A stretch of 18,596 nucleotides of DNA from a virus (taxonomy: Duplodnaviria; Heunggongvirae; Uroviricota; Caudoviricetes), in IMG/VR virus record IMGVR_UViG_3300029107_000039; one strand, given 5' to 3'. This document shows positions 1,099-15,406 of this stretch, in pieces. The translations under genes and the position numbers were made by a program. Under the pieces are notes generated by a model that was given only the letters and a program-made list of their open reading frames with translations, was not told the DNA's origin and ran no database searches. Position 1 is the first letter of the stretch; the number at the start of each line of letters is the position of its first letter.

Positions 1099-2119
1099 CT
1101 AGTCGTAGGATACGGCAAATATGGCTTTGCTTTGGACTTCTCCTGGCTGTAGTGCTTCCTCATTCACGCGGACATATTTCGCGGTAATCGGGAAGGTGTA
1201 CTGATTCTCAATGGCCGCCATTTTAGTTAGTTTGTTCATCAGAGTATCACCCAGCTTTAGCTGGTGTCGTTGCGTTACCATTATAAATCTGGAACCCAAC
1301 CCCCTTAGCACCATTAAGCGATGTGTTTTTCAGAATGGTTCCACTATCATCCCATTCACCGCGCGCAACTTTAAAAGTCACTGGATTAGTCGTGACGTTA
1401 TAAACACTGTCACAATTTAAAACCAGATCTATAGAACCTGATTTTGTGTTATTGGCAGATTGCATCTCACTTATCGTTGTTTCTGGCATTCTTATTTCGT
1501 AAGTCGGTTGCGAGAAACTACAGGTTGTAGGTTTGTGTTTTGTTATATTAACATTTAAATTCTGTTGATAATCAGCATCAGTTGGTAACTTGTTGCCCCA
1601 CCAACAAAGTAAATAAATGAAGGCATTACTATAGCAAAGTTTATCAAAGAAGTTATTTTCAAATGGAAAGACAACCGCAGGAGCATTCAAGATGAATGAA
1701 TTAGAATATACTGTTTGAACATTCGCATTACTGTCAGGCGATTTTATATATGAAGCTGTTAATGCTATGCTTTTATTATTAATAGTATCGTTAACTGAAT
1801 AAGTCTTCCTGCCTCCCGTATCAACAGGAAATCCATCTCCGACATCAAGATTAAACTTAATATAAATTGATTGATTGCTGTTTTGATTTTCTTTCATCTC
1901 TACAACATAATTATCTAATGTTTTAAGCACATTTACCTTATCTTGAGTCGAATTACATGTAAATTCTCCCGTCAGATTAGGAGAAAATGTAACCGTTGCA
2001 TTTCCCGCAGTTAAGTCTAAATTAACCCCCTGTATTGCAGTAGAATTTCCGTTGATAGTACATTTAGCCTGCCCCCAAAATGGCAAAGCCAGTAGAAACA
2101 AAAACCAATATTTCTTCAT
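1099..2119 (-). pseudogene. Fimbrial tip adhesin (two-domain, FimH-like pilin-domain C-terminus), split by an apparent +1 frameshift near 1247-1252
   Basis: ORF 1247-2140 starts with a signal peptide at the ATG at 2119 (MKKYWFLFLLALPFWGQA, AAGGA RBS) and ends ...GVGFQIYNGNATTPAKAG-TGA. Skipping one nucleotide at GCT GGG (T) GAT continues into ORF 1099-1314 as ...DTLMNKLTKMAAIENQYTFPITAKYVRVNEEALQPGEVQSKAIFAVSYD, which resembles a fimbrial pilin-domain C-terminus (FimH ...LTANYARTGGQVTAGNVQSIIGVTFVYQ, from memory). Could be a true pseudogene or a sequence error. Confidence 0.6.
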
Positions 2120-2130
2120 AAACAAATCCT

Positions 2131-4617
2131 TTAGCGACAAATATAAACTTTATTCTCATCAATAACGTTATCAAAGGTAATAGTGCAGAATTGTTCCTGC
2201 TGTTTATTAACCGAGACGCGAATCGCCGCGGGAACATCATTGGTGCGAATAAATATCCGACTTCCCTGTCCTACCAAGCCCACATTGTTGCCGCTTTCAT
2301 CTTCAACCTCATAACCAAACGGCAACGGAGAGCCATCAGGGCGTTGGGAGATGAAATACCAAGGCTTGCGTTTATCAGTCTCAAACTGCGTCATCACTAC
2401 CGCACCACGATAAGGAACGGTGTTTTTACGGTTACCCAGTAGCGCCACATCGCTTTTACTGTCGGCAATATCCAACATCAACGTATTTTCACGATACGGC
2501 GTCAGGTTGTCATAAATAGCGTAGCCTCTGCTATCCGTGGTCAGGTAACGATATCCCTGCACCGCTGCTCCCTCCAGTCCCGGCGCTTTGACGATGGCGA
2601 ACGTATCAGAAAGTCTGGGAGCCAGTGCCACCCCGTCCGACCACGCGACTAAACCGCCTTGAATATTACCGCTAATCTGTTGATATCTTTTCGACTGGCT
2701 ATAGCTGCCACCAATGGTCGCCAATGGCGCACGCCAGGTCAGGTTTCCACCTGCGGTTGTTTCGCTACCCTGTTGCTGATGGCTTAAGTTAGCCCCGTAG
2801 CTGAACTGATCGCGACTCCCCGCTACACCGCTGAGACTGGTATTATTCGACCGATAGCCGTCTTTATCAAAAGTGGTCGAGTTAGAAACAAATAAATCTC
2901 GTCGTTTTTCAGTGATTCCATCGCCCCACGAGAAGGGAATTGAGAAATATAAGTTAATGCGTCTATCTTCGCGGTTATCTTCATCGTAAGTCTGGCTAAC
3001 AGACAAGGTATAACTAAGGCGTTCCCAGGAGTTCGAATAGCTGAGTTGATAATCTTTCCCTGTCCCGCTGCGTTCCCAATAATCCCGCCATTGACCGCTG
3101 ACCGACAGATATCCCCAATCATCTGGTAATGACTGGTTTATATTTACAGAAAAGCTGTTCTTGCGACCAAAATCGTACTGATAATAGTCGGCAATGTCAT
3201 AAACAGAGTCATCTTCTCGATTATATCTATTCCTGTTATTTGCCCATACGTGATCGTTAAAAGTACGATAATCCCGAGAGGAGTAACGCCAGGCCGCCAG
3301 AGAAAATTGCGTCCCACTCTGTGAGAGATATTTGTTCCAGGCAATCTGATAACTTTGACCATTAAATACATCACCGTTATCTTGTTCACTGTGGGAATGG
3401 GTAAAATCAACCGATACAGCACCAATCGGTGTATTCCATCCCGTGCCGAGAACAAACGATGAGTAATTATCAGACAACTGCGTGCCAGCATAGAGAGTCA
3501 GCAAATTATTAAGGCCATACTGATAGCTTCCCTGAATAAAATCCGACTGATTGCTGGCTCCCTCAATACGACTACGTCCGGCAGCAAATTCATATTTCGA
3601 AACGCCCGGTTGCAACATATTTGGTACAGATGAATAAGGTACACGATAACGCGATACCGAACCGTCAGCTTCTTTAACAGTAACTTCCAGATCGGCACCA
3701 CCACCAGCAAGTTGCAAATCATCAATGGCGAATGGACCTGGTGGAACCTCCTTCTGGTAAATAACAAAACCATTTTGTTCTATAGTGACGAGTGCGTTGC
3801 TCTGGGCAATTCCTCGCACTATAGGAGTAAAATTCTGTTTAGAGTTCGGCAACATCTGCATATCGCGCCAGAGGCGTACCCCGCGAAAACGCACGGAGTC
3901 AAAAACATCAGAGCCGGTATACATTTCACCAGCACGCAATGTGCCAAGAATTTGTGGAATTCCGCGCTCCAGATATAACGTGTTACTCTTCCATTTACCG
4001 CTGCTCTGGTCACTTTTCGTATAATTGGCATTTGAATGCAACTGCCAGCCCAGAAGATTCAAACCACTGTTCAGATTTAAATAGCTACTTTTATTATCTC
4101 CTCCGTGCTTATAATTACTGTAATACTGACTGGCATAATAAGATGTATATAATGCGTTAATCCCGCGATCCCATGCCTCAGGCGGGACATATCCGCGTTC
4201 ATACTCAACGACATAGGCTTGGGGTACACTTAACTTCAGGTTAAAATGCCCAATATCATAGTCAACGCTGCCGCCCTGTACCGCTTCCCGAAGTGGTACA
4301 CATTCTACGCTTTTATCGATATTAATGCCTTCTGTGAGGATACCTATTTGCTTTAACTGCTCCCAGGATAAACATGTTGCATCCGGATCATCTTTAATAT
4401 CGACATTATAATGTCCGCGCCACTGATTATTCAGGTATACATCCATATCATAGATACCGGGCATCGGCTTATTACTATCGATATGATAGTCAGAAATTTT
4501 TTCCCCATTTAATCCGCCAATCATAAAATGGGTGTCAAATGTTTCATCTTCCGCCCATGCAGACGAAGTTGCCAACACCGACAGGATAGCCAGCGTAATA
4601 GAATTAAGTTTAGACAT
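2131..4617 (-). CDS. Fimbrial outer-membrane usher protein
   Basis: About 828 aa from the ATG at 4617 (MSKLNSITLAILSVLATSSAWA signal peptide; CAGGGA RBS). Length and composition are typical of chaperone-usher ushers, with a C-terminal Cys pair (CTITFDNVIDENKVYICR). Sits between the chaperone and adhesin genes. Confidence 0.9.
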   Translation of the reverse strand: MSKLNSITLAILSVLATSSAWAEDETFDTHFMIGGLNGEKISDYHIDSNKPMPGIYDMDVYLNNQWRGHYNVDIKDDPDATCLSWEQLKQIGILTEGINIDKSVECVPLREAVQGGSVDYDIGHFNLKLSVPQAYVVEYERGYVPPEAWDRGINALYTSYYASQYYSNYKHGGDNKSSYLNLNSGLNLLGWQLHSNANYTKSDQSSGKWKSNTLYLERGIPQILGTLRAGEMYTGSDVFDSVRFRGVRLWRDMQMLPNSKQNFTPIVRGIAQSNALVTIEQNGFVIYQKEVPPGPFAIDDLQLAGGGADLEVTVKEADGSVSRYRVPYSSVPNMLQPGVSKYEFAAGRSRIEGASNQSDFIQGSYQYGLNNLLTLYAGTQLSDNYSSFVLGTGWNTPIGAVSVDFTHSHSEQDNGDVFNGQSYQIAWNKYLSQSGTQFSLAAWRYSSRDYRTFNDHVWANNRNRYNREDDSVYDIADYYQYDFGRKNSFSVNINQSLPDDWGYLSVSGQWRDYWERSGTGKDYQLSYSNSWERLSYTLSVSQTYDEDNREDRRINLYFSIPFSWGDGITEKRRDLFVSNSTTFDKDGYRSNNTSLSGVAGSRDQFSYGANLSHQQQGSETTAGGNLTWRAPLATIGGSYSQSKRYQQISGNIQGGLVAWSDGVALAPRLSDTFAIVKAPGLEGAAVQGYRYLTTDSRGYAIYDNLTPYRENTLMLDIADSKSDVALLGNRKNTVPYRGAVVMTQFETDKRKPWYFISQRPDGSPLPFGYEVEDESGNNVGLVGQGSRIFIRTNDVPAAIRVSVNKQQEQFCTITFDNVIDENKVYICR

Positions 4618-4631
4618 AATCAATCCCTGAT

Positions 4632-5312
4632 CTATTTGACGGTTTTTATTTTTTCACTCAAATAGTTTCCATTATCATCAATCAGCGTAACATTGTAATG
4701 GCTAACAACGGAGGCCGTGGTGACGGTCTGTTCTGACCAGGGAGCTAGTACCAGCGTTTCTTTATTTACTTTGGTATTACCTGTCAGTTCGGGAATAGTT
4801 ATCCAGTTCGCTGAATTATTTTTTATATTGATACCACCACTGACAGGTCTGATATTCAGTCGAGAAAAACTCCCTTTATCGACACCTGCTATACCTTCCG
4901 GACGATAAATAAATTTAATGCGGTTTTGCATCGCGAATTTAATCTGGTTTTTACTCTCATTTTTCTCACTATTAGGTGGAATATCCAGGACATTGAGAAA
5001 GAACAAGCTTTCGCGATCTTTAGGTAGGGTATTCGTCAGTTGCTTAATTTTAAGTTGCTGCCCCCCTCCTCCTTTTACGTGAGCTACCGGTGGCGTCAGC
5101 ACAAACGGAACATGAATTTTTTCTGGGGGCAGGCTGGTATCGCCATCATCAATCCACGACTGAATCAGAGCACTGCGCTCACCTTCATTCATTAATTGAA
5201 CGGTAATCTCTTTTTTCTGTTCTGGATAAATAACGCGAGTGCCGTAGATATAGACTCCGCCCCACACAGGCGTGACCATGCCGACCAGCAAAAAGGCTAT
5301 TAACTTTTTCAT
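4632..5312 (-). CDS. Periplasmic fimbrial chaperone (PapD-like)
   Basis: 226 aa from the ATG at 5312 (AAGGAG RBS 8 nt upstream). Signal peptide MKKLIAFLLVGMVTPVWG. PapD-family-like N-terminal region (TRVIYPEQKKEITVQLMNEGERSALIQSWIDDGD). Confidence 0.9.
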   Translation of the reverse strand: MKKLIAFLLVGMVTPVWGGVYIYGTRVIYPEQKKEITVQLMNEGERSALIQSWIDDGDTSLPPEKIHVPFVLTPPVAHVKGGGGQQLKIKQLTNTLPKDRESLFFLNVLDIPPNSEKNESKNQIKFAMQNRIKFIYRPEGIAGVDKGSFSRLNIRPVSGGINIKNNSANWITIPELTGNTKVNKETLVLAPWSEQTVTTASVVSHYNVTLIDDNGNYLSEKIKTVK

Positions 5313-5333
5313 GGCAACACTCCTTGTTGTAAA

Positions 5334-5352
5334 ATATCGGCGGCAGCCGCCG
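5334..5352 (-). other. Intercistronic hairpin between the major-subunit and chaperone genes
   Basis: ATCGGCGGC-a-GCCGCCGAT, a perfect 9-bp GC-rich inverted repeat between the subunit stop (5365) and the chaperone start (5312), with no strong T-run. Resembles the mRNA-stabilising or attenuating stem-loops found after major pilin genes. Confidence 0.4.
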
Positions 5353-5364
5353 ATAAGCAAAGTA

Positions 5365-5907
5365 TTAATCTGTTACGACAGTCATTGTCAACGCAGATTT
5401 AACATCACCAGAGGTCACTGAAGTATCAGATTTTGCATATCTTGCACTAAAGTTAAGCGTATATAAGTCATTCGTATCTTTCCCATTTAATTCAATAACT
5501 CCATCCTTTGTAATTCTCTTTTCCTCATCATTATTAACATAATAGACAGCAAACCCAGCGCCATTATTCGAAGCAGTATTAACCGTAATATTGTCATAAG
5601 AGTCAACAAATTGCGAACTAGAAAACGTAATTCTTGGCGTTTTATCTCCGGTACATTTAACTTTCAGAGGCACGGTAGTTTTATTTGAATAAGTATCAAC
5701 GGTACTGCCAACAGTTACATTTTCGAATTGATCAGCACCAATTTCGTTCATCGCAATTGTTGCAGTAGTACCGTCAATAAATTGACATGTAGTCCCCACG
5801 ACTTTACCGGTAATAATTAACTCCCCCTGTTGATTCCCTTCTGCAAATGCTCCTGCACTCATAAAAAGAGATGATAATACCGCAACTGCAATAATTGAAT
5901 GTTTCAT
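5365..5907 (-). CDS. Fimbrial major subunit (pilin)
   Basis: 180 aa. Signal peptide MKHSIIAVAVLSSLFMSAGAFA. Cys pair (TCQF ... KVKCTG) typical of pilins. First gene of the operon, with AAGGA RBS; followed by chaperone, usher and adhesin. Confidence 0.85.
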   Translation of the reverse strand: MKHSIIAVAVLSSLFMSAGAFAEGNQQGELIITGKVVGTTCQFIDGTTATIAMNEIGADQFENVTVGSTVDTYSNKTTVPLKVKCTGDKTPRITFSSSQFVDSYDNITVNTASNNGAGFAVYYVNNDEEKRITKDGVIELNGKDTNDLYTLNFSARYAKSDTSVTSGDVKSALTMTVVTD

Positions 5908-6323: not shown

Positions 6324-6878
6324 TCAAAACCAGGGAATAGTTGCTGTTGCGCTTAATCCATAACTACTGAATTCCCCTTTCACCGGTTCAGTGAGCAAAT
6401 CACCATGACGGATAAACAGCTTGAACTGTTGCTGACTCGATAAACTCTTCATATTGAGAAAGGGTAAATCGGTCCGCCGTTCAGTTTGCGTCGCCAGTCG
6501 CTCAATTGCCTGTTCTTTAGTGAGCCAGCCCTTTTTTACTGAACGCCTTAACAGACGCAGGGGGTTACTTTTAACCTGCACACGGCTTACCACTCGCCAG
6601 CCTTTTATTTCAGGAATAGGAGTGACAGGTGAACATTGGCAATAGTCCGTAAGTCCTTTACGCCACGTTGAGGCTTCAAGCGCCTGCAATGCCGGGGCGC
6701 TGCCGTGTAAGCGTAAACGCGCTCCCGGCGTAACATTCACGTCCGGGAAACTCACGCCGATATCACCTTGCCCTCTTGCGCCTAATGCCCGGTGCAATTT
6801 GGCAAATAACGCTGCCATCAACATTTCACTCGAAAATTCAGGATCTGGCAGAACGCGGATCTCAAGGTAGTGCTCCAT
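6324..6878 (-). CDS. cas6f: Csy4 / Cas6f crRNA endoribonuclease
   Basis: 184 aa from the ATG at 6878 (AAGGAG RBS): MEHYLEIRVLPDPEF...AKLHRALG (conserved His)...FIRHG...YGLSATATIPWF. Closely resembles Pseudomonas Csy4 as recalled. The ORF track extends to 6920 using an upstream alternative start. Confidence 0.9.
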   Translation of the reverse strand: MEHYLEIRVLPDPEFSSEMLMAALFAKLHRALGARGQGDIGVSFPDVNVTPGARLRLHGSAPALQALEASTWRKGLTDYCQCSPVTPIPEIKGWRVVSRVQVKSNPLRLLRRSVKKGWLTKEQAIERLATQTERRTDLPFLNMKSLSSQQQFKLFIRHGDLLTEPVKGEFSSYGLSATATIPWF

Positions 6879-6888
6879 TGGCAGCTCC

Positions 6889-7890
6889 TTATTCCGCTTT
6901 CTCACCAAAGACACCGCCACGGATCAGCACTGCCATCACGTAGTGCTGTTGATCAACGTCTGGTTTCATCCCTTTAGTCACCCAATTGTCCAGTAAGGTA
7001 TAAAAATCGAGTTTTTCTTTCGGTTGGCGGCAGGCCACACCGCGACTGGTTACAGAACCGTAAGGTTCCACGGCGATAGCCCCCAACTCATCAACCTTCG
7101 GATGCCAGGTGTCAATAGTACGTAAAGCGTTGCCAATTTTTTGGGAGTGAATACCGGCAATGCCTGCAACCTGGTACAACACGCGACTTTTGCTACTGTT
7201 GCTGTCGAGCACCAGTTCCTGTGATGGGAAGACTTCTTGCCCGGCACCGAGGCGAACCTGCGCTTCAACGGTAAGCATCACCCACTCTTTTCCGCTTAAT
7301 CCTTGTTCAATTATTGTCGCCAGTTCTGTGACGCTACTCTGGCCTTGATCAAATTGACGCAAGGAGAAGTCATGACTGTTAAAAGTCCAGGACGAATCAT
7401 TAGCAGTAACTTTCACCTGGATCTGCTCAGCACCAATGCGGTTGCGCCACAAAAAACGACCATTTGCCAGATTCAGCGCATAGCGAAGCGCCAGCTCTTT
7501 AAAACCATGCTCGCTGATATAGCCGTCAATAACGTCGGAAAGCGCCTCCTGATAGGCCATATCATTACATACTGAAGGTGAAGATAAATTACCCAGCACT
7601 CGCAGCGTAAACACCACTTTTAGCGTATCAGCATCTACCGGAAGCGAGGCTACATCTACCCGCTGCAAGTTGGCTTTTTGGATTTCAGCATCCAGTTTGG
7701 TGGGGTCACTGGTAATCGTGTTTTTCAGGCGATTAGAAATGGTTCCGCGAACCGCTTTTTCCTGAATCTCAATGGGTTGCCATTCATTTCCTTGCCAGTT
7801 ACCTGCGTACATCGCCGCGTCAGACGTTGCCAGTTTGCGTTCAAATGCCAGTACCGACGCCGTTTTTATTGCTACAGGGGCCTTTGCCAT
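6889..7890 (-). CDS. cas7f: Csy3 / Cas7f Cascade backbone subunit
   Basis: 333 aa from the ATG at 7890 (AAGGAC RBS): [20 protein letters not shown]...[10 protein letters not shown]...LIRGGVFGE. Csy3-like. Stop at 6889, 11 nt before the csy4 start. Confidence 0.9.
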
Positions 7891-7900
7891 AATTATGTCC

Positions 7901-8824
7901 TTATTCTGAATCGTCATCTTCATTAGTAGTAGGGTCGTCAACGAGTGGTATTGCCGAGCAATAGTAGCCAGTGTCCGTCGTACGATAGCGCCACATCAGC
8001 GGTTGCAAATCAGTAATGCGATGTAATCCACGCCATTCGCCAATGCCATAAACCGCTTCGGCAAAGGCAAATGGCGTCACGGTATCGCGCGCATTTTCAA
8101 CTTCACCGGGAGCGTAAACAGGAGATATGCGTTGGTAACCGCACATTAACGGTACCAGGAAACCAGGCATTGGCTTCGGCTGGTATACCCATTGTGCGCT
8201 GTTGTCTTCTGCCGGAGATTCGGCCTGATATTTAATCGTGGCAAAATCAAGCCAGGCATCAAGCAACGATATGTCGGGATGTTGTTGGTGATGTTCAGCC
8301 AGCCATTCGCTGCGGTCGTAAAGCGCGTAACCTGGCATTAAACGCCAGATGATTTTACGCAGTTGCTTTTCATCTTCAGGCGCATGAAAAAGCTGAGGAT
8401 CGCGCATGTCAACAATGCTGCCGCCCGCCAGTTTGTGGCTCTGGCAGAGCATTTTCAGATGGTCACAAAGGGCTTTTCTACCGTATTCACCATTGGTAAT
8501 TTCGCCATTACATTCAATCAGCAGAGAGACCGTCAGGTGCATACGCCCCTCTTCATTAAATGAGGCGGTTTTACCTTCTCTGGTTAGTGGATTACGGGTG
8601 AGAGCGAACTGAAAATCGCGCCCGGAGCTGTACGCCTGAATATGTTGTTCATGGCTAACGACCGCGCAACCGTCAAAACTTACGCCAAATTCATCCACCA
8701 CTTTGCGAGAAAGCGCATGAACATAGCCGAGAAAATGGGTCATCGACGGGAATCCCCAGGTCAACCCGGAGACAGCGTTGGCGTTTTCGATACGTACATG
8801 GGGTAACAAGAGCAGATAACTCAT
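7901..8824 (-). CDS. cas5f: Csy2 / Cas5f Cascade subunit
   Basis: 307 aa: [27 protein letters not shown]...NPLTREGK...LHLTVSLL...GEWRGLHRI. Csy2-like. Its ATG overlaps the csy1 stop (ATGA at 8821-8824). Confidence 0.9.
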
Positions 8825-10128
8825 TTCAGCGCCTCCTGCAAAACGGCTTCCATTTCACGCATCCGTTGAGCGAACAGGGACTGACTGCGCCACTCTTTTT
8901 GCTCGATAGCACCTACATCGAAACTGGCTTTTTTCAGGCGATAGTTCAGCCAGCGCGCGAAATCCTCGGCCACCTTACCCTGCCAGTCGTTTTTTTCACG
9001 CTCCAGTTTGAAAGCCTCATCTGACAGGCTTCGCCACGGATCCAGCCACAGTTGCTGGTGGCGCGGTAAGGCTGGTGATTGCGCGGACCATCCCTGCCAT
9101 TTTTCTTGTTGAAAAGAGGATGCCTGCATAAACAGCAAATCTATCAACTCATCAATATATTTCGCCCGTGTGGTACGGATATGAACATTATTTTTGTCAA
9201 CTTTCAGAAGATAGGTCATACGGGCGATAATGCCCGAGGCCGCCCGATTGAAATCGCCACGTAAGGCAAAAATACTGCGCATGTTTTGTGGTGCGCGATC
9301 CAGCGCCGCCCAGGTGGGCGGCATTGATGGCAACAGCCAGACACGGCCAACTCTGGCACTGTTTAGCAGGGAGATATTCTGTTGATTTCCACCTCCATAA
9401 TGCATCTCTGCAAGATTCGGGAAACGAATATCTGGCTGTGAGTGCCATTTACCTGCTTTGTGCGCATCGCGAATAGCTTTTGATTCCTCGCTAAAGCGCA
9501 CGGCAGTTAGCTTTTCATACATCACCTGTGCCAGCGAACTGGAAAACAGCGGGCAGAGCAGATGATAGCCATCATCGACAGGGAAATAGATTTGCTTCGA
9601 AAGTTTATGTGCTTTTATCCACTCCGAAGCATATGCTTCACTAAAGCATTCAACCCATTGTTTTAATTGTTCATCATCCAACGCAAAGGCATTTAATGAT
9701 TGATAATCACCACGTTTTAAGCTGGCGAGTAATGAATCACCGTTGGCTTCCGTTAGCAGTAGTTTTGCAACATCAAAAACGGCTGCATTGCCTTCAGCAT
9801 CCTCTTTAATAATTGCCAGTGATGCTGTATTTAAATATCCCTCGCTGACGAATTTCTCCAAATAACGCCCATATGCTTTGGAGTCACCATTACTATATTT
9901 TGCCCCGTGGGAGATTATCCTTATAGAACGAACACGTTTCGCCGCATCCGTTAACCAGTTACGTGGCAGGTAGCGTGCTTCGAGTTCCTGTCGCTCCAGA
10001 GCGATAACGCTGGCGTCCTCGCCCTGTTCCAACCGCTTTGCTGCTTCTTTTTCAAAGGCTTCGATCTTGGGTTGCCTTCGCGAAGCGATGTAGTCAGTGA
10101 TAAATTGTATTAGCGCCGTTTTTTCCAT
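8821..10128 (-). CDS. cas8f: Csy1 / Cas8f large Cascade subunit
   Basis: 435 aa. ATG at 10128 with AAGGAG RBS. Csy1-like motifs (KQIYFPV, GGGNQQNISLLNS, WLLPSMPP, QQLWLDPWR). First gene after the 324-nt gap following cas2-3. Confidence 0.9.
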   Translation of the reverse strand: MEKTALIQFITDYIASRRQPKIEAFEKEAAKRLEQGEDASVIALERQELEARYLPRNWLTDAAKRVRSIRIISHGAKYSNGDSKAYGRYLEKFVSEGYLNTASLAIIKEDAEGNAAVFDVAKLLLTEANGDSLLASLKRGDYQSLNAFALDDEQLKQWVECFSEAYASEWIKAHKLSKQIYFPVDDGYHLLCPLFSSSLAQVMYEKLTAVRFSEESKAIRDAHKAGKWHSQPDIRFPNLAEMHYGGGNQQNISLLNSARVGRVWLLPSMPPTWAALDRAPQNMRSIFALRGDFNRAASGIIARMTYLLKVDKNNVHIRTTRAKYIDELIDLLFMQASSFQQEKWQGWSAQSPALPRHQQLWLDPWRSLSDEAFKLEREKNDWQGKVAEDFARWLNYRLKKASFDVGAIEQKEWRSQSLFAQRMREMEAVLQEALK

Positions 10129-10195
10129 CTCGGCTCCTTTCGTTAATCCATCAAATTGAAGTTGCTCCCTGACTTCACTGAAAAATCTCCGTAGC

Positions 10196-10258
10196 CTAAC
10201 CAGACTTCAGTACAACGACACACACAGCAAAAGGGGCAACGCCCGTGGTGATAATCAT
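10196..10258 (-). other. Candidate 20-codon hydrophobic mini-ORF (MIITTGVAPFAVCVVVLKSG) with SD, immediately downstream of the crRNA-like target site
   Basis: Minus strand AGGTGA-actatcc-ATG ATT ATC ACC ACG GGC GTT GCC CCT TTT GCT GTG TGT GTC GTT GTA CTG AAG TCT GGT TAG. Below the 60-aa ORF-track threshold. Could be chance. Confidence 0.2.
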
Positions 10259-10268
10259 GGATAGTTCA

Positions 10269-10281
10269 CCTAGAGGTATCT
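10269..10281. promoter_or_regulatory. Predicted Cascade binding site: CC PAM plus 11-nt seed match to the spacer of the crRNA-like element
   Basis: Plus strand CC-TAGAGGTATCT at 10269-10281 equals PAM plus spacer positions 1-11 of the mini-array spacer (10400-10410). The match begins exactly at spacer position 1 and is lost from position 12 onward. Confidence 0.6.
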
Positions 10282-10288
10282 ACGTTTT

Positions 10289-10316
10289 AATCTAGTTAAA
10301 CCCATGAAATAACCAA
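10289..10316 (-). promoter_or_regulatory. Candidate minus-strand promoter whose predicted start abuts the Cascade target site (may drive the mini-ORF and/or csy1-4)
   Basis: Minus strand TTGGTT (plus 10311-10316), 16-nt spacer, TAGATT (plus 10289-10294); predicted TSS near 10281. Hexamers are weak; by-eye call only. Confidence 0.2.
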
Positions 10317-10342
10317 GAGTGATATTACCATGCATAAAATAT

Positions 10343-10371
10343 TTGCAACACAATGGTTTAATAACTAACAT
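10343..10371 (+). promoter_or_regulatory. Candidate plus-strand promoter for the crRNA-like RNA
   Basis: TTGCAA (10343-10348), 17-nt spacer, TAACAT (10366-10371); the predicted start falls inside the first pseudo-repeat, just before its hairpin. By-eye call only. Confidence 0.25.
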
Positions 10372-10452
10372 TCACGCACTGCCATCGGCAGCTTAGAAAT
10401 AGAGGTATCTCCGGATACGGACTTGTAAACTGCCGTACAGGCAGCTAACCCA
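10371..10452 (+). ncRNA. crRNA-like mini-array (pseudo-repeat, 25-nt spacer, pseudo-repeat), inverted relative to the cas genes; candidate Cre-type regulatory RNA
   Basis: Pseudo-repeat 1 (10371-10399) TTCAC-gca-CTGCC-atc-GGCAG-CTTAGAAA keeps the Cas6f hairpin stem and an exact 8-nt 5' handle. Spacer-like TAGAGGTATCTCCGGATACGGACTT (10400-10424). Pseudo-repeat 2 (10425-10452) GTAAA-CTGCCGTACAGGCAG-CTAACCCA has a perfect hairpin with degenerate flanks and ends at the cas2-3 stop codon. Confidence 0.65.
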
Positions 10453-13400
10453 TCACAGGTTGCGAAACACACCTAACCAGGGGTGATAACGCCAGTCATC
10501 GACCGCATCTTCTTCACTGGCCGGTACTCTCACTTCAGCAAACATTTCTCCAACACGCTGTATTTCACAACTTTGCTTATCAGCTAAATTCAACAAAACG
10601 TGTTGGTAATCCATCACGCCCCAGCAAGCGACGCCGCTGGCGCATCTCACCTCTTCTCGCCTGAAATTCCCTTGCGCTTTACGCTCGTTGTCGCCCGTGC
10701 GGGAATAGAAACGCGCTTCGCTTTCTTCATCATCCATATGCAGAAAAAACACTGCCTCCGGCAAAGGGGAATAACGAAATGGCGTCTGGCGCTGCATCCA
10801 GCCGTTCCAGCTTAGCGGTGCACGCCACCATTGCGCCGCCACCACATGTTTGCTTTTACTGCTCATCAATTCAGCGGATAAACGACTATGCTCAAGCTCC
10901 GCCAGTTTGTTGTCATTATTGGCAGACAGGATCCGCGGCAAGGCGTTAATCGTCCGGTAGTCCGCGATCGGAATCAGTTCGCAAATATCGTGGCTATTAA
11001 GCAAGTGTTCTTTTGTTTCGAAACCAGGCTTACAAAATGCGGGGGCTTTTTTCTGCAATGATTTGATATTACTACGCAAAATAACCAGATTCTCACTAGT
11101 CGGCACATTTCTACGGTGGCGCTGAATACGTCCGGCAAATTGAATTATCGAACGCATGGAGCTTGGTTCGATAATTCCCCAGTCCGCATCCCAGTCACGC
11201 CCCACCTCTATAACCGATGTCCCCAACACCACAAACAGATGGTGCGATTCCGGACGGTTATGTAAGGCTTCAGCAATATCCTCGTTGTTCCAGAAATCGA
11301 GTTCGTTATGGCGGGTAAAAGCGCGGTCCAGGCGCTTCTCAATATCTGAACGTACTGCCAGTGGATGTCGGGAGTGGTAAACACAATAATGAATGCAGAC
11401 ATCTTCTGGTGATGGAATGGCGATCAGGGCTTTGGTCACTGCGACCAGTGGATTGATATTCGCGAAGCGCACCAGGCCCAGCGAAACGGTTTTACCGCTT
11501 TCTTGCTGCTGGCGATGTGCCTGATGCAACTTCAGCATTTGCGCATGTACCGTCTGAGCCACGCTTTCGGTAACATCCTGAATCGCGTTTGATGCAGATG
11601 AAATAGAAGCAATACGTCCGAAATGCAGTCGTTCTTTTTCGGCCAACATTAACGCTCGTCGCGCAACAAACTTTTTGTGCGTCTCACGAAAAGTAGCGCC
11701 ATCGCCAATTTGTATGGCGTCGGCATCTTTTTCATCAAACCAGGCACAGCAAATATTGACGGGTCTGCCGTTCGTACCGCATGACGACTGCCACATTTTA
11801 CGCCCGGCAAGATAAGCCGCGAACAGCGCCTGAATCAGCCCTGGCGGCAACGTCGCGGAAGAAAGTAATACCCGCGTTCCCAACATTCCGGCCCAATTCA
11901 TCAGACGACATACTGCATGAAGATCGGCAATATCAAAGTCGTCAGGTTCATCGAGCACTAAATCGCTGGTTAACAAACGCAACATCGAAGGAAGCTGTTT
12001 TCCGCCTCGCACACCTTCGGTCGCAGAAATAAGATGATCAATGGTTGCTACCAGAATCGGTGCGCTTACTAACGCCTTAAGTTTGCTGTCATCCTTCAAC
12101 CATTTTTCCAGCGCCCCGGTATGCAGACTACCTTCATATTTAACAAACTGTTGCTCCTCTGCCAGCGATTCTTGCGAAGCACTTCCGCAATCATTGTCTG
12201 TTTTTTCCTGCTGCCACAGTTGCTTAACTGCCGCCGAACCAATCAGTACCGCCAGCTCATCCTCACCCAGTCCAAGCCGACTGCGCAGAGCATCGCCGGT
12301 TTGCAAAGTCAGCGTGCGCAATCCCAGCGCGACGGTAAAACGGCACCCTTCCCGCTCATCGGTAAGCGCATACATAATGCGGGCGTTAGCAAAGGTTTTA
12401 CCGCACCCCGTCGAGGCCATATTGACACCGAAAAAACCGTCTTCCCGGCTTCGCTCACGTAACGCACGTGCCACATCCCAGGCTTTATCCTGCCAACGAT
12501 ATTTCGCGTCTGTGGCCCGTTGGCTAAAGCCTTTATGTCGGGCAATTGCCGGAAGCGATGCACGTGTGTGCATCAGTTGCCGCCCAAGTAGATACGCATG
12601 ATGCGCGACGCCGACCAGATGCTCATCTACCCGTTGTTTGAGCGTGCCGCTCTGCCGATCGCTATTTGCCCAGACGATATAATTCGGGTCTTGCCATTTT
12701 TGCTGCGCGTCGTTAGATGAATAGTAGTGATCGGCAAGCATCAGGCAAAAACGCGCCATATGTAACGGAAACAGTTGCTCCATCTGCCCCCATTCCTTTA
12801 GGCCGATCGCGTTACACGCCCTACGGGCAATCTGACGCGCTTTTTCTCGCCAGCTCGCGCTTTGAAGCGGCGTTCCTGACGGAAATTGCCAGACTTGCTC
12901 GAAATCCTGTTGTGACCAGTCATTCTTACGGTGGTTAACGGCATTCCAGTCAGCATTGAGTTGTTTCTCCAGCCAACTATCACAGCCTTTACATGATTGT
13001 TCCGGTTGTGGCGAAAGATTCTCCGGCATTCGATGATGGGAAAGGATCAACCAGCCTACCGTTTTGGCGAGTGGTTGCAGCGAACTGAATGGACTATTTG
13101 AAAAATGAGGCGTGTCTTTTTGCAGGCACTCAAGGATCGCGGTTTCATCATCTGCCGTTAATTTCCCAAGTTTTTCCAGCCACACTTCGTCTGGCTGTTC
13201 ACCGACAAAAGCCTGAAAAAGCCGCAGCGAAATCCACTCATGCCGATAAGGCTGATAACTGCGGGCATTCTTTTGGGTCAGGCTTTGCTGAAAGCTGCGT
13301 CCTGCTTTACCAAAATCATGAAATAACCCAGCGATAGCCGCCAGCAGCGCAATACTTTCCGCGCACTGCCAGCGATTTTCTTCTTTTTTCACCAGGCTGG

Positions 13401-13686
13401 TTTGCGTTGTTCGATTTGTGGGAACGCGTCCCTGAGCATTAAAACGACGAATATTGCCGACAATCCACATCAACTCCGTTTGCCCATTCTTCTTCAGCCA
13501 GTGACAAGCCACTGCGGTATTTCGCCGGGCAGTTTTGCGCAGTAAACGGCGAAGTGTATTAACCCCTTCCAGAGTAATCACCGTTTGCCATGCGGCGTCA
13601 CCAGTGCGTTCGGCAAATTGATCAATAATACGGCAGCTCTCCACTCGAGCATTTTTTGTGCAGCGCGAGATAATCAGGACGTTCAT
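10453..13686 (-). CDS. cas3: Cas2-Cas3 fusion (type I-F signature nuclease-helicase)
   Basis: 1077 aa. N-terminal Cas2-like region, HD nuclease motif (LFHDFGKAG), helicase Walker A (STGCGKT) and DExD box (LVLDEPDD). Its ATG overlaps the cas1 stop (ATGA at 13683-13686). Confidence 0.95.
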   Translation of the reverse strand: MNVLIISRCTKNARVESCRIIDQFAERTGDAAWQTVITLEGVNTLRRLLRKTARRNTAVACHWLKKNGQTELMWIVGNIRRFNAQGRVPTNRTTQTSLVKKEENRWQCAESIALLAAIAGLFHDFGKAGRSFQQSLTQKNARSYQPYRHEWISLRLFQAFVGEQPDEVWLEKLGKLTADDETAILECLQKDTPHFSNSPFSSLQPLAKTVGWLILSHHRMPENLSPQPEQSCKGCDSWLEKQLNADWNAVNHRKNDWSQQDFEQVWQFPSGTPLQSASWREKARQIARRACNAIGLKEWGQMEQLFPLHMARFCLMLADHYYSSNDAQQKWQDPNYIVWANSDRQSGTLKQRVDEHLVGVAHHAYLLGRQLMHTRASLPAIARHKGFSQRATDAKYRWQDKAWDVARALRERSREDGFFGVNMASTGCGKTFANARIMYALTDEREGCRFTVALGLRTLTLQTGDALRSRLGLGEDELAVLIGSAAVKQLWQQEKTDNDCGSASQESLAEEQQFVKYEGSLHTGALEKWLKDDSKLKALVSAPILVATIDHLISATEGVRGGKQLPSMLRLLTSDLVLDEPDDFDIADLHAVCRLMNWAGMLGTRVLLSSATLPPGLIQALFAAYLAGRKMWQSSCGTNGRPVNICCAWFDEKDADAIQIGDGATFRETHKKFVARRALMLAEKERLHFGRIASISSASNAIQDVTESVAQTVHAQMLKLHQAHRQQQESGKTVSLGLVRFANINPLVAVTKALIAIPSPEDVCIHYCVYHSRHPLAVRSDIEKRLDRAFTRHNELDFWNNEDIAEALHNRPESHHLFVVLGTSVIEVGRDWDADWGIIEPSSMRSIIQFAGRIQRHRRNVPTSENLVILRSNIKSLQKKAPAFCKPGFETKEHLLNSHDICELIPIADYRTINALPRILSANNDNKLAELEHSRLSAELMSSKSKHVVAAQWWRAPLSWNGWMQRQTPFRYSPLPEAVFFLHMDDEESEARFYSRTGDNERKAQGNFRREEVRCASGVACWGVMDYQHVLLNLADKQSCEIQRVGEMFAEVRVPASEEDAVDDWRYHPWLGVFRNL

Positions 13687-14666
13687 TGGTCAGCCTTAGC
13701 CAGGGCCTGAGCCGTTTCCTGCAGAGAGGTGATCATGACATCCAGCGCATCCGCTTGTTGAAAGATATTGATGCAGCGTTGACGAAACTCCTGAGCATCT
13801 TCTCCCGCCATTGCAGCGATAAATGCTTGTGGCATAACAAGGGCATCTTTAATCAGATCGGCAAGGTCAAAAACGAGACCACCGCGACGGGTTTTACCGT
13901 GCATTACTGCTAAACCGTGCGGGATCCCGGTTACCCACGCCGCCACTGCCGCCAGGCCATACGCCAGATAATTACCCTGATCGAGGAAGCGGTTGGCCAT
14001 ATCAACTCCGCCACCCCGTTTTGCACGAGTAAAGTCGCCGTAGCCCACGGATTGACTCACCATTTTGTAGAGTGCTTTGGTCAATTTCGCCTCTACGAGC
14101 ATAAGCTGCGTATGGCTTTCTGCCATGTCTATTTCTTCACGAGTGCGATTTAGCAGAGTCTGCAGCGCACTGGCATCAGGTTGAAAGGCGTGTTCACGCT
14201 GCATTTTCGCGCTGGTCCAGTACTTATCAATATGTGTCAGACGAATTAACTGAAAACGTTTCGCGGCGGCAAGGCGTTTGTCTTCAACAAACCAAAAAGA
14301 AACCCACTGCTGAAGATATTCAGTAGGACGATATTCGCTTTGCGGACTGAGCCAGGAGACATCAACATCAACTTCATTTGCCGAATACAGCGGCGTGCCA
14401 TCCGTACCACAAAAACCCACCATCACTCCAGCATGGGCAAATTCACGCATCGCCGCCTGGGTAACGGACGTTCCCATCCCCAACATCAACGCCGTGGTAT
14501 TCGCAATGGGGATATTCCAGTAATACGACTCCTTGCCTTCACTGGTGACATACTCCACTCGCCCACCATTCACCTGCACCCGGCATTTTTCCAGATAATA
14601 AATATTGGCACGCCTGGAGTGGAGAATGGTTTTGAGATCAGAAGGAGTAAGGTAATTTGAAGACAT
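13683..14666 (-). CDS. cas1: Cas1 integrase (type I-F)
   Basis: About 327 aa from the ATG at 14666 (AGGA RBS): MSSNYLTPSDLKTILHSRRANIYYL...NIPIANTTALMLGMGTSVTQAAM...HGKTRRGGLVFDLADLIKD. Strongly Cas1-like. The ORF track begins at an upstream GTG at 14672. Confidence 0.95.
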   Translation of the reverse strand: MSSNYLTPSDLKTILHSRRANIYYLEKCRVQVNGGRVEYVTSEGKESYYWNIPIANTTALMLGMGTSVTQAAMREFAHAGVMVGFCGTDGTPLYSANEVDVDVSWLSPQSEYRPTEYLQQWVSFWFVEDKRLAAAKRFQLIRLTHIDKYWTSAKMQREHAFQPDASALQTLLNRTREEIDMAESHTQLMLVEAKLTKALYKMVSQSVGYGDFTRAKRGGGVDMANRFLDQGNYLAYGLAAVAAWVTGIPHGLAVMHGKTRRGGLVFDLADLIKDALVMPQAFIAAMAGEDAQEFRQRCINIFQQADALDVMITSLQETAQALAKADQ

Positions 14667-14837
14667 AAACACATCCTGTGATTATTTTTATTTGAAGGAG
14701 TTAGGATTAGTACAGCATTGATTTCTGTGTGAGAAATTGATTCTCGTCGCAATTATCACAATTGTTATTGTGTGTCACAGCTAATGGTTCGGAGTTGAGA
14801 GCGCCATAACGCAGCTAAATTTCTGCCATCATCGTAT

Positions 14838-15406
14838 TTGTGAAACTGCCTGTACGGCAGTGAACTGAGGTGCTTTTGACGGCCGTCCATGCCTTTGCTT
14901 TCTAAGCTGCCTGTACGGCAGTGAACCAGAACTGGATCGACAATGAATTCGGGGATCTTTTCTAAGCTGCCTGTACGGCAGTGAACTACGACCTGTTAAA
15001 AACAGACAGTGACGGCATTTTCTAAGCTGCCTGTACGGCAGTGAACTTTTTTGAGGTTGATTATGAGTGAGCCAGCCTTTTCTAAGCTGCCTGTACGGCA
15101 GTGAACGTGGTTGGCATGGCGCTCCCTGAGTCGAAAGATTTCTAAGCTGCCTGTACGGCAGTGAACAGGCAGAAGAAGAAATGGATGTAACTCACAATTT
15201 TCTAAGCTGCCTGTACGGCAGTGAACAATAACGCCCGCGACGGCGACCGGTAAAACGTTTTCTAAGCTGCCTGTACGGCAGTGAACTAGCAACAGGTGCG
15301 GAAAGTGGCGCAATACCCTTTCTAAGCTGCCTGTACGGCAGTGAACGTGTTGTTAGCCGCGCCATGTGCTTTCCTCCGTTTCTAAGCTGCCTGTACGGCA
15401 GTGAAC
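14838..15406 (-). CRISPR. Type I-F CRISPR array B: 10 repeats including a degenerate leader-distal repeat, 9 spacers; upstream of cas1
   Basis: Repeats start at 14838 (degenerate: TTGTGAAA instead of TTTCTAAG), 14899, 14959, 15019, 15079, 15139, 15199, 15259, 15319, 15379. Spacers of 32-33 nt at 14866-14898, 14927-14958, 14987-15018, 15047-15078, 15107-15138, 15167-15198, 15227-15258, 15287-15318, 15347-15378. Leader on the right. Confidence 0.95.

What the first reader, a model, noticed from the sequence alone, without database searches (positions are those of the whole stretch)
10269..10281. Spacer of the mini-array matches a CC-PAM-flanked site over exactly its first 11 nt
Plus strand CC-TAGAGGTATCT at 10269-10281 reproduces the I-F PAM (5'-CC on the protospacer strand) plus spacer positions 1-11, with identity starting exactly at position 1 and ending at position 12 (target ACGTTTT versus spacer CCGGATA). 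A PAM plus an 11-nt exact match elsewhere in a roughly 300-bp region is very unlikely by chance (on the order of 1 in 10^5 on a simple random model; my estimate, not computed). Seed-only complementarity would be expected to let Cascade bind without triggering Cas2-3 degradation, meaning repression rather than self-cleavage. The site lies 141-153 nt upstream of the csy1 ATG and 11 nt upstream of a good SD and a mini-ORF start on the minus strand, so Cascade bound here would sit on a candidate promoter or transcription start region.
Basis: seen in the sequence. Interest (0 to 1): 0.85.

Follow-up and report, generated by a model that had tools for sequence, protein, structure and literature searches.

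The report
Self-regulating mini-CRISPR in Escherichia I-F locus
A two-repeat mini-CRISPR between cas2-3 and csy1 makes a short guide RNA whose first 14 bases match a PAM-flanked site just upstream of the csy genes, so the CRISPR complex most likely represses its own operon; it is a clear Escherichia example of a mechanism already shown in Pseudomonas and Acinetobacter.

Summary
CC at 10269-10270 followed by TAGAGGTATCT at 10271-10281 equals positions 1-11 of the mini-array spacer (10400-10424). The expected number of such matches is 5e-6 in the intergenic region.

Position 12 does not pair in type I complexes, and positions 13-14 match again.

Across 11 Escherichia alleles the PAM and every pairing position are invariant. 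The one exception is position 5, which changed G>T in both spacer and target. All uncompensated differences fall on positions 6 and 12. The flanking DNA is only 55-60% conserved. This six-base periodicity points to recognition by the Csy complex.

The spacer is 25 nt rather than 32. ΨR1 keeps the 5' handle and ΨR2 keeps the hairpin. The array is transcribed divergently from the cas genes.

This is the architecture of published type I-F CreR/CreA regulatory RNAs. Those repress without cleaving.

The most likely function is autorepression of csy1-4. The same site would also repress an SD-led mini-ORF immediately downstream of the target. Whether that ORF is a CreT-like toxin is unresolved. Its start codon and reading frame are not conserved in B2-type E. 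coli.

I classify it as a new member of a known kind, of moderate interest.

The parts
10343..10371 (+). Candidate promoter of the mini-array: -35 TTGCAA at 10343-10348, a 17-nt spacer, and -10 TAACAT at 10366-10371. The predicted start is about 10378, just before the ΨR1 hairpin.
   Evidence: CTAACAT is invariant and TTGC is kept in 10 of the 11 alleles (muskdeer has TTTACC); the 17 nt between them vary. It scores 8 of 12, below the scan threshold. This is a prediction only.
10371..10399 (+). ΨR1, a degenerate repeat. The hairpin is CTGCC (10379-10383), ATC, GGCAG (10387-10391). It is followed by an intact 8-nt 5' handle, CTTAGAAA (10392-10399).
   Evidence: Compared with the canonical repeat GTTCACTGCCGTACAGGCAGCTTAGAAA. 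Sub-threshold Rfam CRISPR-DR4 hit at 10377-10399 on the + strand. The handle is invariant in 10 of 11 alleles.
10400..10424 (+). ΨS, a 25-nt spacer-like guide: TAGAGGTATCTCCGGATACGGACTT.
   Evidence: It varies only at positions 5 and 6 across alleles. It is present once in each of the 239 E. coli genomes with a type I-F system.
10425..10452 (+). ΨR2, GTAAACTGCCGTACAGGCAGCTAACCCA. The canonical hairpin at 10430-10444 is intact and the 3' part is degenerate. It abuts the cas2-3 stop codon. The predicted mature RNA spans 10392-10444 (53 nt).
   Evidence: Rfam CRISPR-DR4 hit at 10430-10448 on the + strand. The processing sites are inferred from known Cas6f behaviour.
10269..10284 (+). Target site: PAM CC (10269-10270) and a protospacer pairing at positions 1-11 and 13-14 (10271-10284). 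The crRNA pairs with the minus strand.
   Evidence: It is an island of conservation: 1 of 13 columns varies, against 51 of 73 neighbouring columns (Fisher p = 3e-5).
10289..10294 (-). Candidate -10 (TAGATT on the minus strand), here called P2. It lies inside the 25-bp footprint of the bound complex. The predicted start is about 10282.
   Evidence: A -10-like hexamer sits at the same offset in all allele classes: TAAATT in E1V33 and TAATAT in the UTI89 class. The -35 is weak. This is a prediction only.
10322..10330 (-). Candidate extended -10 (TGgTAATAT on the minus strand), here called P1. The predicted start is about 10315, which would put the target at about +35 to +47.
   Evidence: The hexamer reads TAATAT in 8 of the 10 alleles, with single changes in SCPM (TAGTAT) and E1V33 (TAATGT), inside a variable region. 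This is a prediction only.
10196..10271 (-). SD AGGTGA (10271-10266), then a mini-ORF with ATG at 10258 and TAG at 10198-10196. It encodes the 20-aa peptide MIITTGVAPFAVCVVVLKSG. Six other alleles encode 27 aa.
   Evidence: An SD-like motif is retained in all alleles. The ATG and the frame are not conserved in the UTI89 class. The coding-selection test is inconclusive (7 synonymous, 9 nonsynonymous; P about 0.1).
6324..10128 (-). csy1-csy2-csy3-csy4(cas6f), the effector operon lying downstream of the target with no terminator in between.
   Evidence: NCBIfam equivalog hits. No terminator-like site in 10050-10520. In E. coli LF82, csy1-cas6f is a transcription unit separate from cas1-cas2/3 (PMC3506596).
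10453..14672 (-). cas1 and cas2-3, the adaptation and nuclease genes upstream of the module.

Best explanation
The 324-bp cas2-3/csy1 gap carries a degenerate two-repeat mini-CRISPR, a crRNA-like regulatory gene of the CreR/CreA type. It is transcribed on the + strand, opposite to the cas genes.

Cas6f would cut at the two hairpins. This would give a 53-nt RNA: the 8-nt handle CUUAGAAA, a 25-nt guide and a 20-nt hairpin. The RNA would assemble with Csy1-4.

The loaded complex recognises the CC PAM at 10269-10270 and pairs guide positions 1-11 and 13-14 with the minus strand. The guide is short and the rest does not match, so a full R-loop cannot form and Cas2-3 is not licensed. The complex therefore sits on the DNA as a repressor.

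The site lies on or just downstream of the only plausible start region of the csy transcription unit, and no terminator follows it. Binding should therefore lower transcription of the SD-led mini-ORF and of csy1-4. This is negative feedback that sets the level of Csy complex. It would be relieved when the complex is titrated by other crRNAs or blocked by anti-CRISPRs.

Shown here: the anatomy, the improbability of the match, and the selection pattern. Inferred: RNA processing, binding, absence of cleavage, and the promoter position.
For: Anatomy. ΨR1 keeps the handle and a hairpin. ΨR2 keeps the canonical hairpin. The spacer is 25 nt against 32 in both flanking arrays.

The match. CC plus 11 nt, extending to 13 of 14, has an expectation of 5e-6.

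Comparative test on 11 alleles from E. coli, E. whittamii and Escherichia sp. (intergenic identity 80-95%), plus one further metagenome allele:
- PAM and pairing positions 1-4, 7-11 and 13 never vary.
- Position 5 changed G>T in both spacer and target in the 503025 allele.
- Position 6 differs freely in spacer or target, and position 12 never pairs.
- The surrounding 10257-10342 is only 55-59% identical between classes.

The module is present once in all 239 type I-F E. coli genomes. No terminator separates the target from csy1.

Literature:
- LF82 RT-PCR shows that csy1-cas6f is transcribed separately from cas2/3 across the 330-bp gap, and is expressed (PMC3506596).
- A P. aeruginosa I-F1 mini-array with a shorter spacer and mismatches at positions 6 and 12 represses the Cascade promoter. 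It needs Cascade but not Cas3 (10.1101/2023.03.03.530964).
- Acinetobacter and P. aeruginosa I-F CreA RNAs repress adjacent promoters through partial matches with a CC PAM (PMC10097628; 10.64898/2026.06.02.729485).
Against: No transcription start is mapped. The consensus scan found no sigma-70 promoter of at least 9 of 12 on either strand. My two candidate -10 elements have poor -35 boxes.

No expression or processing data exist for this RNA.

Spacer positions 14-25 are invariant although they do not pair with the target. The model does not explain this.

Close relatives do without the module. Csy1 homologues at 81% identity and below have cas3-csy1 gaps of 0-78 bp. It is therefore dispensable.

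Only one compensatory event was observed.
Confidence: 0.8

Rival explanations
1. The module is mainly a CreTA-type addiction or anti-anti-CRISPR module. In this reading the mini-array RNA is an antitoxin (CreA). Its main job is to keep silent the SD-led mini-ORF just downstream of the target. That ORF would be a toxin, either a small hydrophobic membrane peptide or a ribosome-trapping RNA. It would be released when the Csy complex is lost or inhibited. Autoregulation of csy would then be a side effect of a shared promoter.
For: The layout matches the Acinetobacter I-F CreTA. There, creA is divergent from an SD plus mini-ORF placed directly downstream of the CC-flanked target, in the cas3-csy1 gap (PMC10097628). 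P. aeruginosa CreTA1 shares its promoter with the csy genes (10.1101/2024.10.29.618823).

An SD-like motif is retained in every allele although the sequence around it diverged: AGGTGA, AGGATGA, AGGAGAG.

Six alleles encode an intact 27-aa peptide, MIITTGVVPFAVCVVVLKPGWATEIFQ. Its first 17 residues are strongly hydrophobic (GRAVY 2.56). Substitutions lean towards synonymous (7 synonymous, 9 nonsynonymous).
Against: The coding signal is not significant (P about 0.1).

In the majority UTI89/B2 class the ATG is gone and a +1 insertion changes the frame, so no peptide is conserved across classes. In this window the ORF is cut to 20 aa by TGG>TAG.

UTI89 carries a csy2 pseudogene yet keeps the mini-array and target and is viable.

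There is no hairpin or terminator after the ORF, and the leader folds no better than shuffles (z = +0.37). No rare-codon or Pro-Pro motif is present. Pfam, NCBIfam and plasmid searches found nothing.
Confidence: 0.15
2. The similarity is a non-functional relic. It could be a leftover of a duplicated or decayed repeat-spacer unit, or a chance match, and the Csy complex does not act there.
For: The mini-array is clearly a decayed array. Relatives carry either no gap or a full array at this position. No promoter reaches the consensus threshold.
Against: The chance expectation is 5e-6. The sequence upstream of the target bears no resemblance to a repeat.

The target is an island of conservation in a fast-evolving region (1 of 13 against 51 of 73 variable columns, p = 3e-5). 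The PAM is invariant. Position 5 co-varies, and the differences are confined to positions 6 and 12. A relic would decay uniformly.
Confidence: 0.02
3. The small RNA acts as a plain antisense RNA, independently of Csy. Its 5' part would pair with the minus-strand mRNA just upstream of the SD and block translation of the mini-ORF, as in type I toxin-antitoxin systems.
For: The guide is complementary to the mRNA-sense strand. The duplex would end at the SD, and the PAM complement GG is part of AGGTGA. The compensatory change at position 5 fits any pairing model.
Against: A free RNA duplex of 11 bp should not tolerate internal mismatches specifically at position 6. All uncompensated changes fall at positions 6 and 12, which is the Cas7-imposed periodicity.

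The conserved handle and Cas6f hairpins are unexplained without Csy loading. Homologous I-F RNAs act through Csy on DNA (10.1101/2023.03.03.530964; PMC10097628).
Confidence: 0.03

Closest known systems
Type I-F1 autoregulatory mini-array of P. aeruginosa YL84 (Shmakov et al. 2023, 10.1101/2023.03.03.530964); CreR 'Cas-regulating RNAs' (Liu et al. 2023, 10.1101/2023.03.10.532045)
   Same: A two-repeat mini-array in the cas3-cas8f(csy1) gap. It is transcribed opposite to cas3. The spacer is shorter than canonical. It has a PAM-proximal partial match with a CC PAM upstream of the Cascade genes, and mismatches at positions 6 and 12. Repression needs Cascade but not Cas3.
   Different: The spacer, the target and the whole intergenic sequence are unrelated to the Pseudomonas one. 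Here the target directly abuts an SD and a mini-ORF. The promoter is not mapped. Nothing has been tested experimentally in Escherichia.
CreTA of Acinetobacter sp. WCHA45 type I-F (PMC10097628) and CreTA1/CreTA2 of P. aeruginosa (10.64898/2026.06.02.729485)
   Same: It lies in the cas3-csy1 gap and has ΨR1-ΨS-ΨR2. ΨR1 keeps the handle and both ΨR keep the hairpin. The target is CC-flanked. An SD plus mini-ORF sits downstream of the target and divergent from creA. ΨS of 20-26 nt are known. CreTA1 shares its promoter with csy.
   Different: Known CreT mini-ORFs are 15-33 nt and act as RNAs, through Pro-Pro codons or effects on initiation, and they carry a stabilising hairpin. Here the ORF is 60-81 nt, hydrophobic, without a hairpin, and not conserved in the B2 class. 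Toxicity is untested.
CrePA of Acinetobacter baylyi ADP1 (10.1101/2024.01.05.574328)
   Same: The position is the same and a CreA-type guide is used; in ADP1 the guide matches positions 1-19 except 12. The repressed gene encodes a protein toxin rather than an RNA.
   Different: CreP is a 103-aa KilAC-domain protein lying about 120 bp downstream of the target. Here there is at most a 27-aa peptide with no detectable family.
tracr-L autorepression of the S. pyogenes cas9 promoter (from my own knowledge: Workman et al., Cell 2021; cited in 10.1101/2024.01.05.574328)
   Same: A natural guide with about 11 nt of complementarity directs the effector to its own promoter, causing repression without cleavage.
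   Different: It is a class 2 single-protein effector using a tracrRNA isoform rather than a mini-array, and it has no six-base periodicity.

Membership tests
crRNA-like regulatory mini-array (CreR/CreA, crlRNA) of type I-F | Two CRISPR repeat-like sequences flank a spacer-like sequence, outside the canonical arrays and inside the cas locus. | tested here: met
   ΨR1 at 10371-10399, ΨS at 10400-10424 and ΨR2 at 10425-10452 lie in the cas2-3/csy1 gap. The canonical arrays are at 98-546 and 14838-15406.
crRNA-like regulatory mini-array (CreR/CreA, crlRNA) of type I-F | ΨR1 retains the 8-nt 5' handle, and both ΨR retain the Cas6f hairpin. | tested here: met
   CTTAGAAA is intact. The hairpins are CTGCC-ATC-GGCAG and CTGCC-GTACA-GGCAG. 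The parts of the repeats that are not needed are degenerate.
crRNA-like regulatory mini-array (CreR/CreA, crlRNA) of type I-F | A partial, PAM-proximal match to a nearby site that carries the cognate PAM (CC for type I-F). | tested here: met
   CC plus positions 1-11 and 13-14, with an expectation of 5e-6. The E. coli I-F PAM is GG on the target strand (PMC3506596).
crRNA-like regulatory mini-array (CreR/CreA, crlRNA) of type I-F | Spacer and target co-evolve, with every sixth position exempt. | tested here: met
   There is one compensatory change at position 5. All other differences fall at positions 6 and 12. The PAM and the other seed positions are invariant in 11 alleles.
crRNA-like regulatory mini-array (CreR/CreA, crlRNA) of type I-F | The target lies in or next to the promoter of the effector cas operon (CreR) or of a toxin gene (CreA). 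| tested here: inconclusive
   The site is 141 nt upstream of csy1 with no terminator in between. LF82 RT-PCR places the start of the csy unit in this gap (PMC3506596). Only weak, though conserved, -10-like elements were found.
crRNA-like regulatory mini-array (CreR/CreA, crlRNA) of type I-F | Csy-dependent transcriptional repression without DNA cleavage. | not testable with these tools
   This needs reporter, ChIP and viability assays. It is inferred from the short spacer, the partial match and published homologous systems.
CreTA (CRISPR-regulated toxin-antitoxin) | A small toxin gene (SD plus mini-ORF) lies immediately downstream of the CreA target and divergent from creA. | tested here: met
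   SD AGGTGA at 10271-10266 and ATG at 10258, encoding 20 aa here and 27 aa in six other alleles.
CreTA (CRISPR-regulated toxin-antitoxin) | The toxin element is conserved among related loci. | tested here: not met
   The start codon is lost and a +1 frameshift is present in the UTI89/B2 class. The ORF has a premature stop in this window. The synonymous/nonsynonymous test gives P of about 0.1.
CreTA (CRISPR-regulated toxin-antitoxin) | The element is toxic when de-repressed, so the cell is addicted to the Cas effector. | not testable with these tools
   The only indirect evidence is that UTI89 has a csy2 pseudogene and still carries the module. This argues against an active toxin in that allele.
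Canonical self-targeting CRISPR spacer (autoimmunity) | A full-length spacer of canonical size, (nearly) fully matching a chromosomal protospacer. | tested here: not met
   The spacer is 25 nt against 32. Only 13 of 25 positions pair. No full-length match was found in 5,426 E. coli genomes apart from the mini-array itself.

The most novel reading that the evidence does not exclude
In the non-B2 Escherichia alleles, the SD-led ORF directly downstream of the target may encode a 27-aa hydrophobic peptide (MIITTGVVPFAVCVVVLKPGWATEIFQ) that resembles a type I toxin. It would be a Csy-repressed membrane toxin, and so a third chemical class of CRISPR-repressed toxin alongside RNA CreT and KilAC CreP. 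It would share one promoter with csy1-4. A single guide would then both autoregulate the effector and arm an abortive response to anti-CRISPRs. The B2 lineage (UTI89, LF82) would have lost the toxin but kept the autoregulation.
Probability: 0.15. Interest if true: 0.6.

Novelty: new member of a known kind. Interest (0 to 1): 0.35.

Why it matters
All 239 complete E. coli genomes with a type I-F system carry this module. They include well-studied pathogens and pathobionts such as UTI89, NRG857C and NC101. RefSeq annotates nothing in the gap.

If the model holds, the level of Csy complex in these strains is set by a built-in RNA-guided feedback loop. That loop would respond to crRNA load and to anti-CRISPRs. 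This bears on phage therapy, on CRISPR-based antimicrobials, and on attempts to repurpose the native I-F system.

The natural allele series is a ready-made mutational test of the rule that every sixth position is exempt from pairing in regulatory guides: a compensated change at position 5, and free variation at positions 6 and 12.

Conceptually it adds an enterobacterial example to a mechanism already established in Pseudomonas, Acinetobacter, haloarchaea and Salmonella I-E. It does not add a new principle.

Tried and rejected
[quoted passage not shown] A scan of IMG/VR for handle plus seed gave six AT-rich hits with no repeat hairpin, which I take as chance.
- **A second, fuller target that might explain why spacer positions 14-25 are invariant.** No additional place was found in any of 5,426 E. 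coli genomes. Matches of 16 nt or fewer would not have been detected.
- **A conserved RNA structure in the csy leader.** The alifold helix has no real covariation, and the minimum free energy is no better than shuffles (z = +0.37). One alignment was spoiled because I gave the wrong strand for three loci. I redid it.
- **Coding selection on the mini-ORF.** The result was 7 synonymous against 9 nonsynonymous changes, P about 0.1, which is inconclusive. Pfam, NCBIfam and plasmid tblastn searches found nothing. The big protein search refuses queries under 40 aa.
- **Wider phylogenetic sampling.** The genome-contig scan returned four loci, three Escherichia carrying the module and one Pseudocitrobacter without it. 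The metagenome scan added only one new allele. Csy1 relatives in Klebsiella, Citrobacter, Enterobacter, Cronobacter and Salmonella have no gap. An Erwinia locus has a full array there instead.
- **Supplementary tables of Shmakov et al.** These are not held. I could not check whether the Escherichia I-F1 mini-array is already listed there.
- **A promoter inside the leader (10129-10256).** I inspected it by eye and found none.

Full report
**Context**

The window is the Escherichia clpA-infA type I-F1 CRISPR-Cas locus, apparently from a human gut metagenome contig. All cas genes are on the minus strand: cas1 at 13683-14672, cas2-3 at 10453-13686, csy1 at 8821-10128, csy2 at 7901-8824, csy3 at 6889-7941 and csy4/cas6f at 6324-6920. 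All six reach NCBIfam equivalog or exception cut-offs.

Two canonical arrays, also on the minus strand, lie at 14838-15406 (10 repeats) and 98-546 (8 repeats). Their repeat is GTTCACTGCCGTACAGGCAGCTTAGAAA, with 32-nt spacers.

**The observation**

The 324-bp gap between cas2-3 and csy1 contains a two-repeat element on the + strand.
- ΨR1 reads ...CTGCC-ATC-GGCAG-CTTAGAAA and ends at 10399.
- The spacer-like sequence is 25 nt, TAGAGGTATCTCCGGATACGGACTT (10400-10424).
- ΨR2 is GTAAACTGCCGTACAGGCAGCTAACCCA (10425-10452).

ΨR1 keeps exactly what a mature I-F crRNA needs upstream: a Cas6f hairpin and the 8-nt handle. ΨR2 keeps what is needed downstream, the canonical hairpin. The remaining parts have decayed. 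Rfam's CRISPR-DR4 model finds both at sub-threshold scores on the + strand.

At 10269-10281 the + strand reads CC-TAGAGGTATCT. That is the I-F PAM followed by guide positions 1-11. The E. coli I-F PAM is GG on the target strand, facing the end of the handle (PMC3506596). The expected number of such PAM-anchored 11-mers is 5.4e-6 in the gap and 5.6e-4 in the window. None of 20,000 dinucleotide shuffles exceeded 8.

After the mismatch at position 12, positions 13 and 14 match again (family D10). Position 12, like position 6, is a base that type I complexes flip out and do not pair. The functional match is therefore a continuous 14-nt segment.

**Evidence that it is functional**

I collected the homologous gap from several sources:
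- nine complete E. coli genomes spanning the allele classes; eight enter the alignment, because strain 504211 carries the same allele as 503025;
- E. coli SCPM, E. whittamii and Escherichia sp. E1V33;
- four metagenome contigs.

The gap as a whole is 80-95% identical to the window. The stretch around the target (10257-10342) is only 55-59% identical between the two main classes.

Within that divergent stretch, the PAM and pairing positions 1-4, 7-11 and 13 are invariant. One of 13 such columns varies, against 51 of 73 neighbouring columns (Fisher p = 3e-5). The single variable pairing column is position 5. In the 503025 allele it is T in both guide and target, a compensatory double change.

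Every uncompensated difference lies at position 6 or position 12. At position 6 the guide is G or A and the target is G, A or T, in four combinations. At position 12 the target is A, G or T and never the guide's C.

A free RNA-RNA or RNA-DNA duplex would not show this six-base periodicity. It is the signature of a Cas7-backbone complex. It is the same pattern reported for experimentally validated I-F regulatory guides (10.1101/2023.03.03.530964; 10.64898/2026.06.02.729485).

The mini-array is present exactly once in all 239 of the 5,426 complete E. coli genomes that have a type I-F system. It has the window's spacer in 186 of them and a one-base variant in 53. RefSeq annotates nothing there.

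**How it most likely works**

A conserved -35/-10 pair, TTGCAA at 10343-10348 and TAACAT at 10366-10371, would start + strand transcription just before the ΨR1 hairpin. The 17-nt spacer between them is variable. Cas6f cleavage at both hairpins would give a 53-nt RNA with a 25-nt guide, against 60 nt for a canonical crRNA. Known I-F regulatory guides have 20-, 26- or 30-nt spacers.

Loaded into Csy1-4, the RNA would bind the CC-flanked site by pairing with the minus strand. With only 13 bp of pairing and a shortened guide, a complete R-loop cannot form. Cas2-3 recruitment is therefore not expected. In the YL84 system, Cascade and the mini-array RNA sufficed for repression and Cas3 was dispensable (10.1101/2023.03.03.530964).

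**What is repressed**

No terminator-like structure lies between the site and csy1. In E. coli LF82, RT-PCR across the 330-bp gap was negative while csy1 was expressed. The csy1-cas6f unit therefore starts inside this gap (PMC3506596).

I found no credible promoter in the leader downstream of the site. Upstream there are two -10-like hexamers on the minus strand that survive in all allele classes:
- TGgTAATAT at 10330-10322, which would put the site at about +35 to +47;
- TAGATT at 10294-10289, which lies inside the 25-bp footprint, with a predicted start at about 10282.

Neither has a good -35, and the consensus scan reported no promoter. The geometry remains inferred. Published I-F cases show that the geometry is flexible. 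In P. aeruginosa the target lies about 30 bp upstream of the -35 (10.64898/2026.06.02.729485).

My best reading is negative autoregulation of csy1-4, a CreR-like function, with confidence of about 0.8.

**The mini-ORF**

On the minus strand the PAM complement forms part of a perfect SD, AGGTGA. Seven nucleotides later an ATG (10258) opens a 20-codon ORF encoding MIITTGVAPFAVCVVVLKSG. Six other alleles encode a 27-aa version, MIITTGVVPFAVCVVVLKPGWATEIFQ.

An SD plus mini-ORF directly downstream of the target and divergent from creA is exactly the Acinetobacter I-F CreTA layout (PMC10097628). The peptide is hydrophobic in the manner of type I toxins.

Several things argue against a toxin:
- The synonymous excess is not significant (7 against 9, P about 0.1).
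- The majority B2-type allele has no ATG and carries a +1 frameshift.
- The window's own copy has a premature stop.
- UTI89 has a csy2 pseudogene yet retains the module.
- No stabilising hairpin or rare-codon motif is present.
- No family matches.

I therefore keep 'CreTA-type toxin module' as a rival at about 0.15, not as the main call. An SD-like motif is nevertheless retained in all alleles. The ORF could be a decaying toxin or a leader peptide.

**Distribution**

The module is lineage-specific. Csy1 relatives at 81%, 69% and 51-66% identity (unnamed contigs, Klebsiella, Citrobacter, Enterobacter, Cronobacter, Salmonella salamae, Pseudocitrobacter) have cas3-csy1 gaps of 0-78 bp. An Erwinia locus has a full 10-repeat array upstream of csy1 instead.

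This sporadic pattern was also reported for Acinetobacter and P. aeruginosa. I found no phage- or plasmid-borne mimic of this guide.

**Comparison with what is known, and novelty**

The element meets every sequence-level criterion of the type I-F crRNA-like regulatory RNAs (CreR/CreA). Only the promoter position and the biochemical behaviour remain untested.

I found no paper in the searchable library that describes the Escherichia I-F element. Almendros et al. noted the 330-bp gap but not its content. It may still be listed in supplementary tables that I could not read.

I therefore classify it as a new member of a known kind. Interest is 0.35.

**Unexplained**

Guide positions 14-25 are invariant in all alleles although they do not pair with the target. 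They contain an inverted repeat, GTATC at positions 6-10 and GATAC at positions 15-19.

Noticed in passing
window 1247-5907 (minus strand), 890-977, 98-546: A four-gene chaperone-usher fimbrial operon (fimbrial subunit, PapD-like chaperone, usher, adhesin-like subunit) lies between cas6f and the tRNA-Ser gene plus the second CRISPR array. It is therefore inside the CRISPR-Cas locus. E. coli Rb-50 has the same layout (yehD-like). UTI89 lacks the operon.
   Followed up: partly
L033 (E. coli UTI89, NC_007946.1 893065-893988): csy2 of UTI89 is annotated as a pseudogene with an internal stop. The strain still carries the mini-array and its target. This natural case argues against an active Csy-repressed toxin in the B2-type allele.
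   Followed up: partly
window 10400-10424: Spacer positions 14-25 (GGATACGGACTT) are invariant in all alleles although they do not pair with the target. The spacer also contains an internal inverted repeat, GTATC at positions 6-10 and GATAC at positions 15-19. No second target was found in E. coli genomes.
   Followed up: partly
window 10343-10348: TTGCAA is its own reverse complement. It sits between the divergent candidate promoters of the mini-array (+ strand) and of the csy leader (- strand), so it could serve as a shared -35 element.
   Followed up: no
L031 1-630 (Erwinia sp. CPCC 100877): A full array of about 10 canonical I-F repeats lies directly upstream of csy1, in the same orientation, and no cas3 is called within 1 kb. 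It occupies the position that the mini-array has in Escherichia.
   Followed up: no
L024 (Logan SRR30265174 contig), junction near 1001: A Csy1 homologue 81% identical to the window's has cas2-3 overlapping csy1 by 4 nt, so there is no gap and no mini-array. The module has therefore been gained or lost among close relatives.
   Followed up: partly
window 10129-10200 (minus strand, frame +1 relative to the mini-ORF): A second reading frame ending ...CTEAWLGYGDFSVKSGSNFNLMD* stays open up to the csy1 SD in every allele. In B2 strains the +1 insertion fuses it to the N-terminal part of the mini-ORF. Several substitutions are synonymous in this frame (TTG/TTA, AAG/AAA, GAT/GAC).
   Followed up: partly
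window 14838-14865: The cas1-proximal terminal repeat of the upstream array is degenerate at its 3' end (GTTCACTGCCGTACAGGCAGTTTCACAA), as is typical of the oldest repeat.
   Followed up: no
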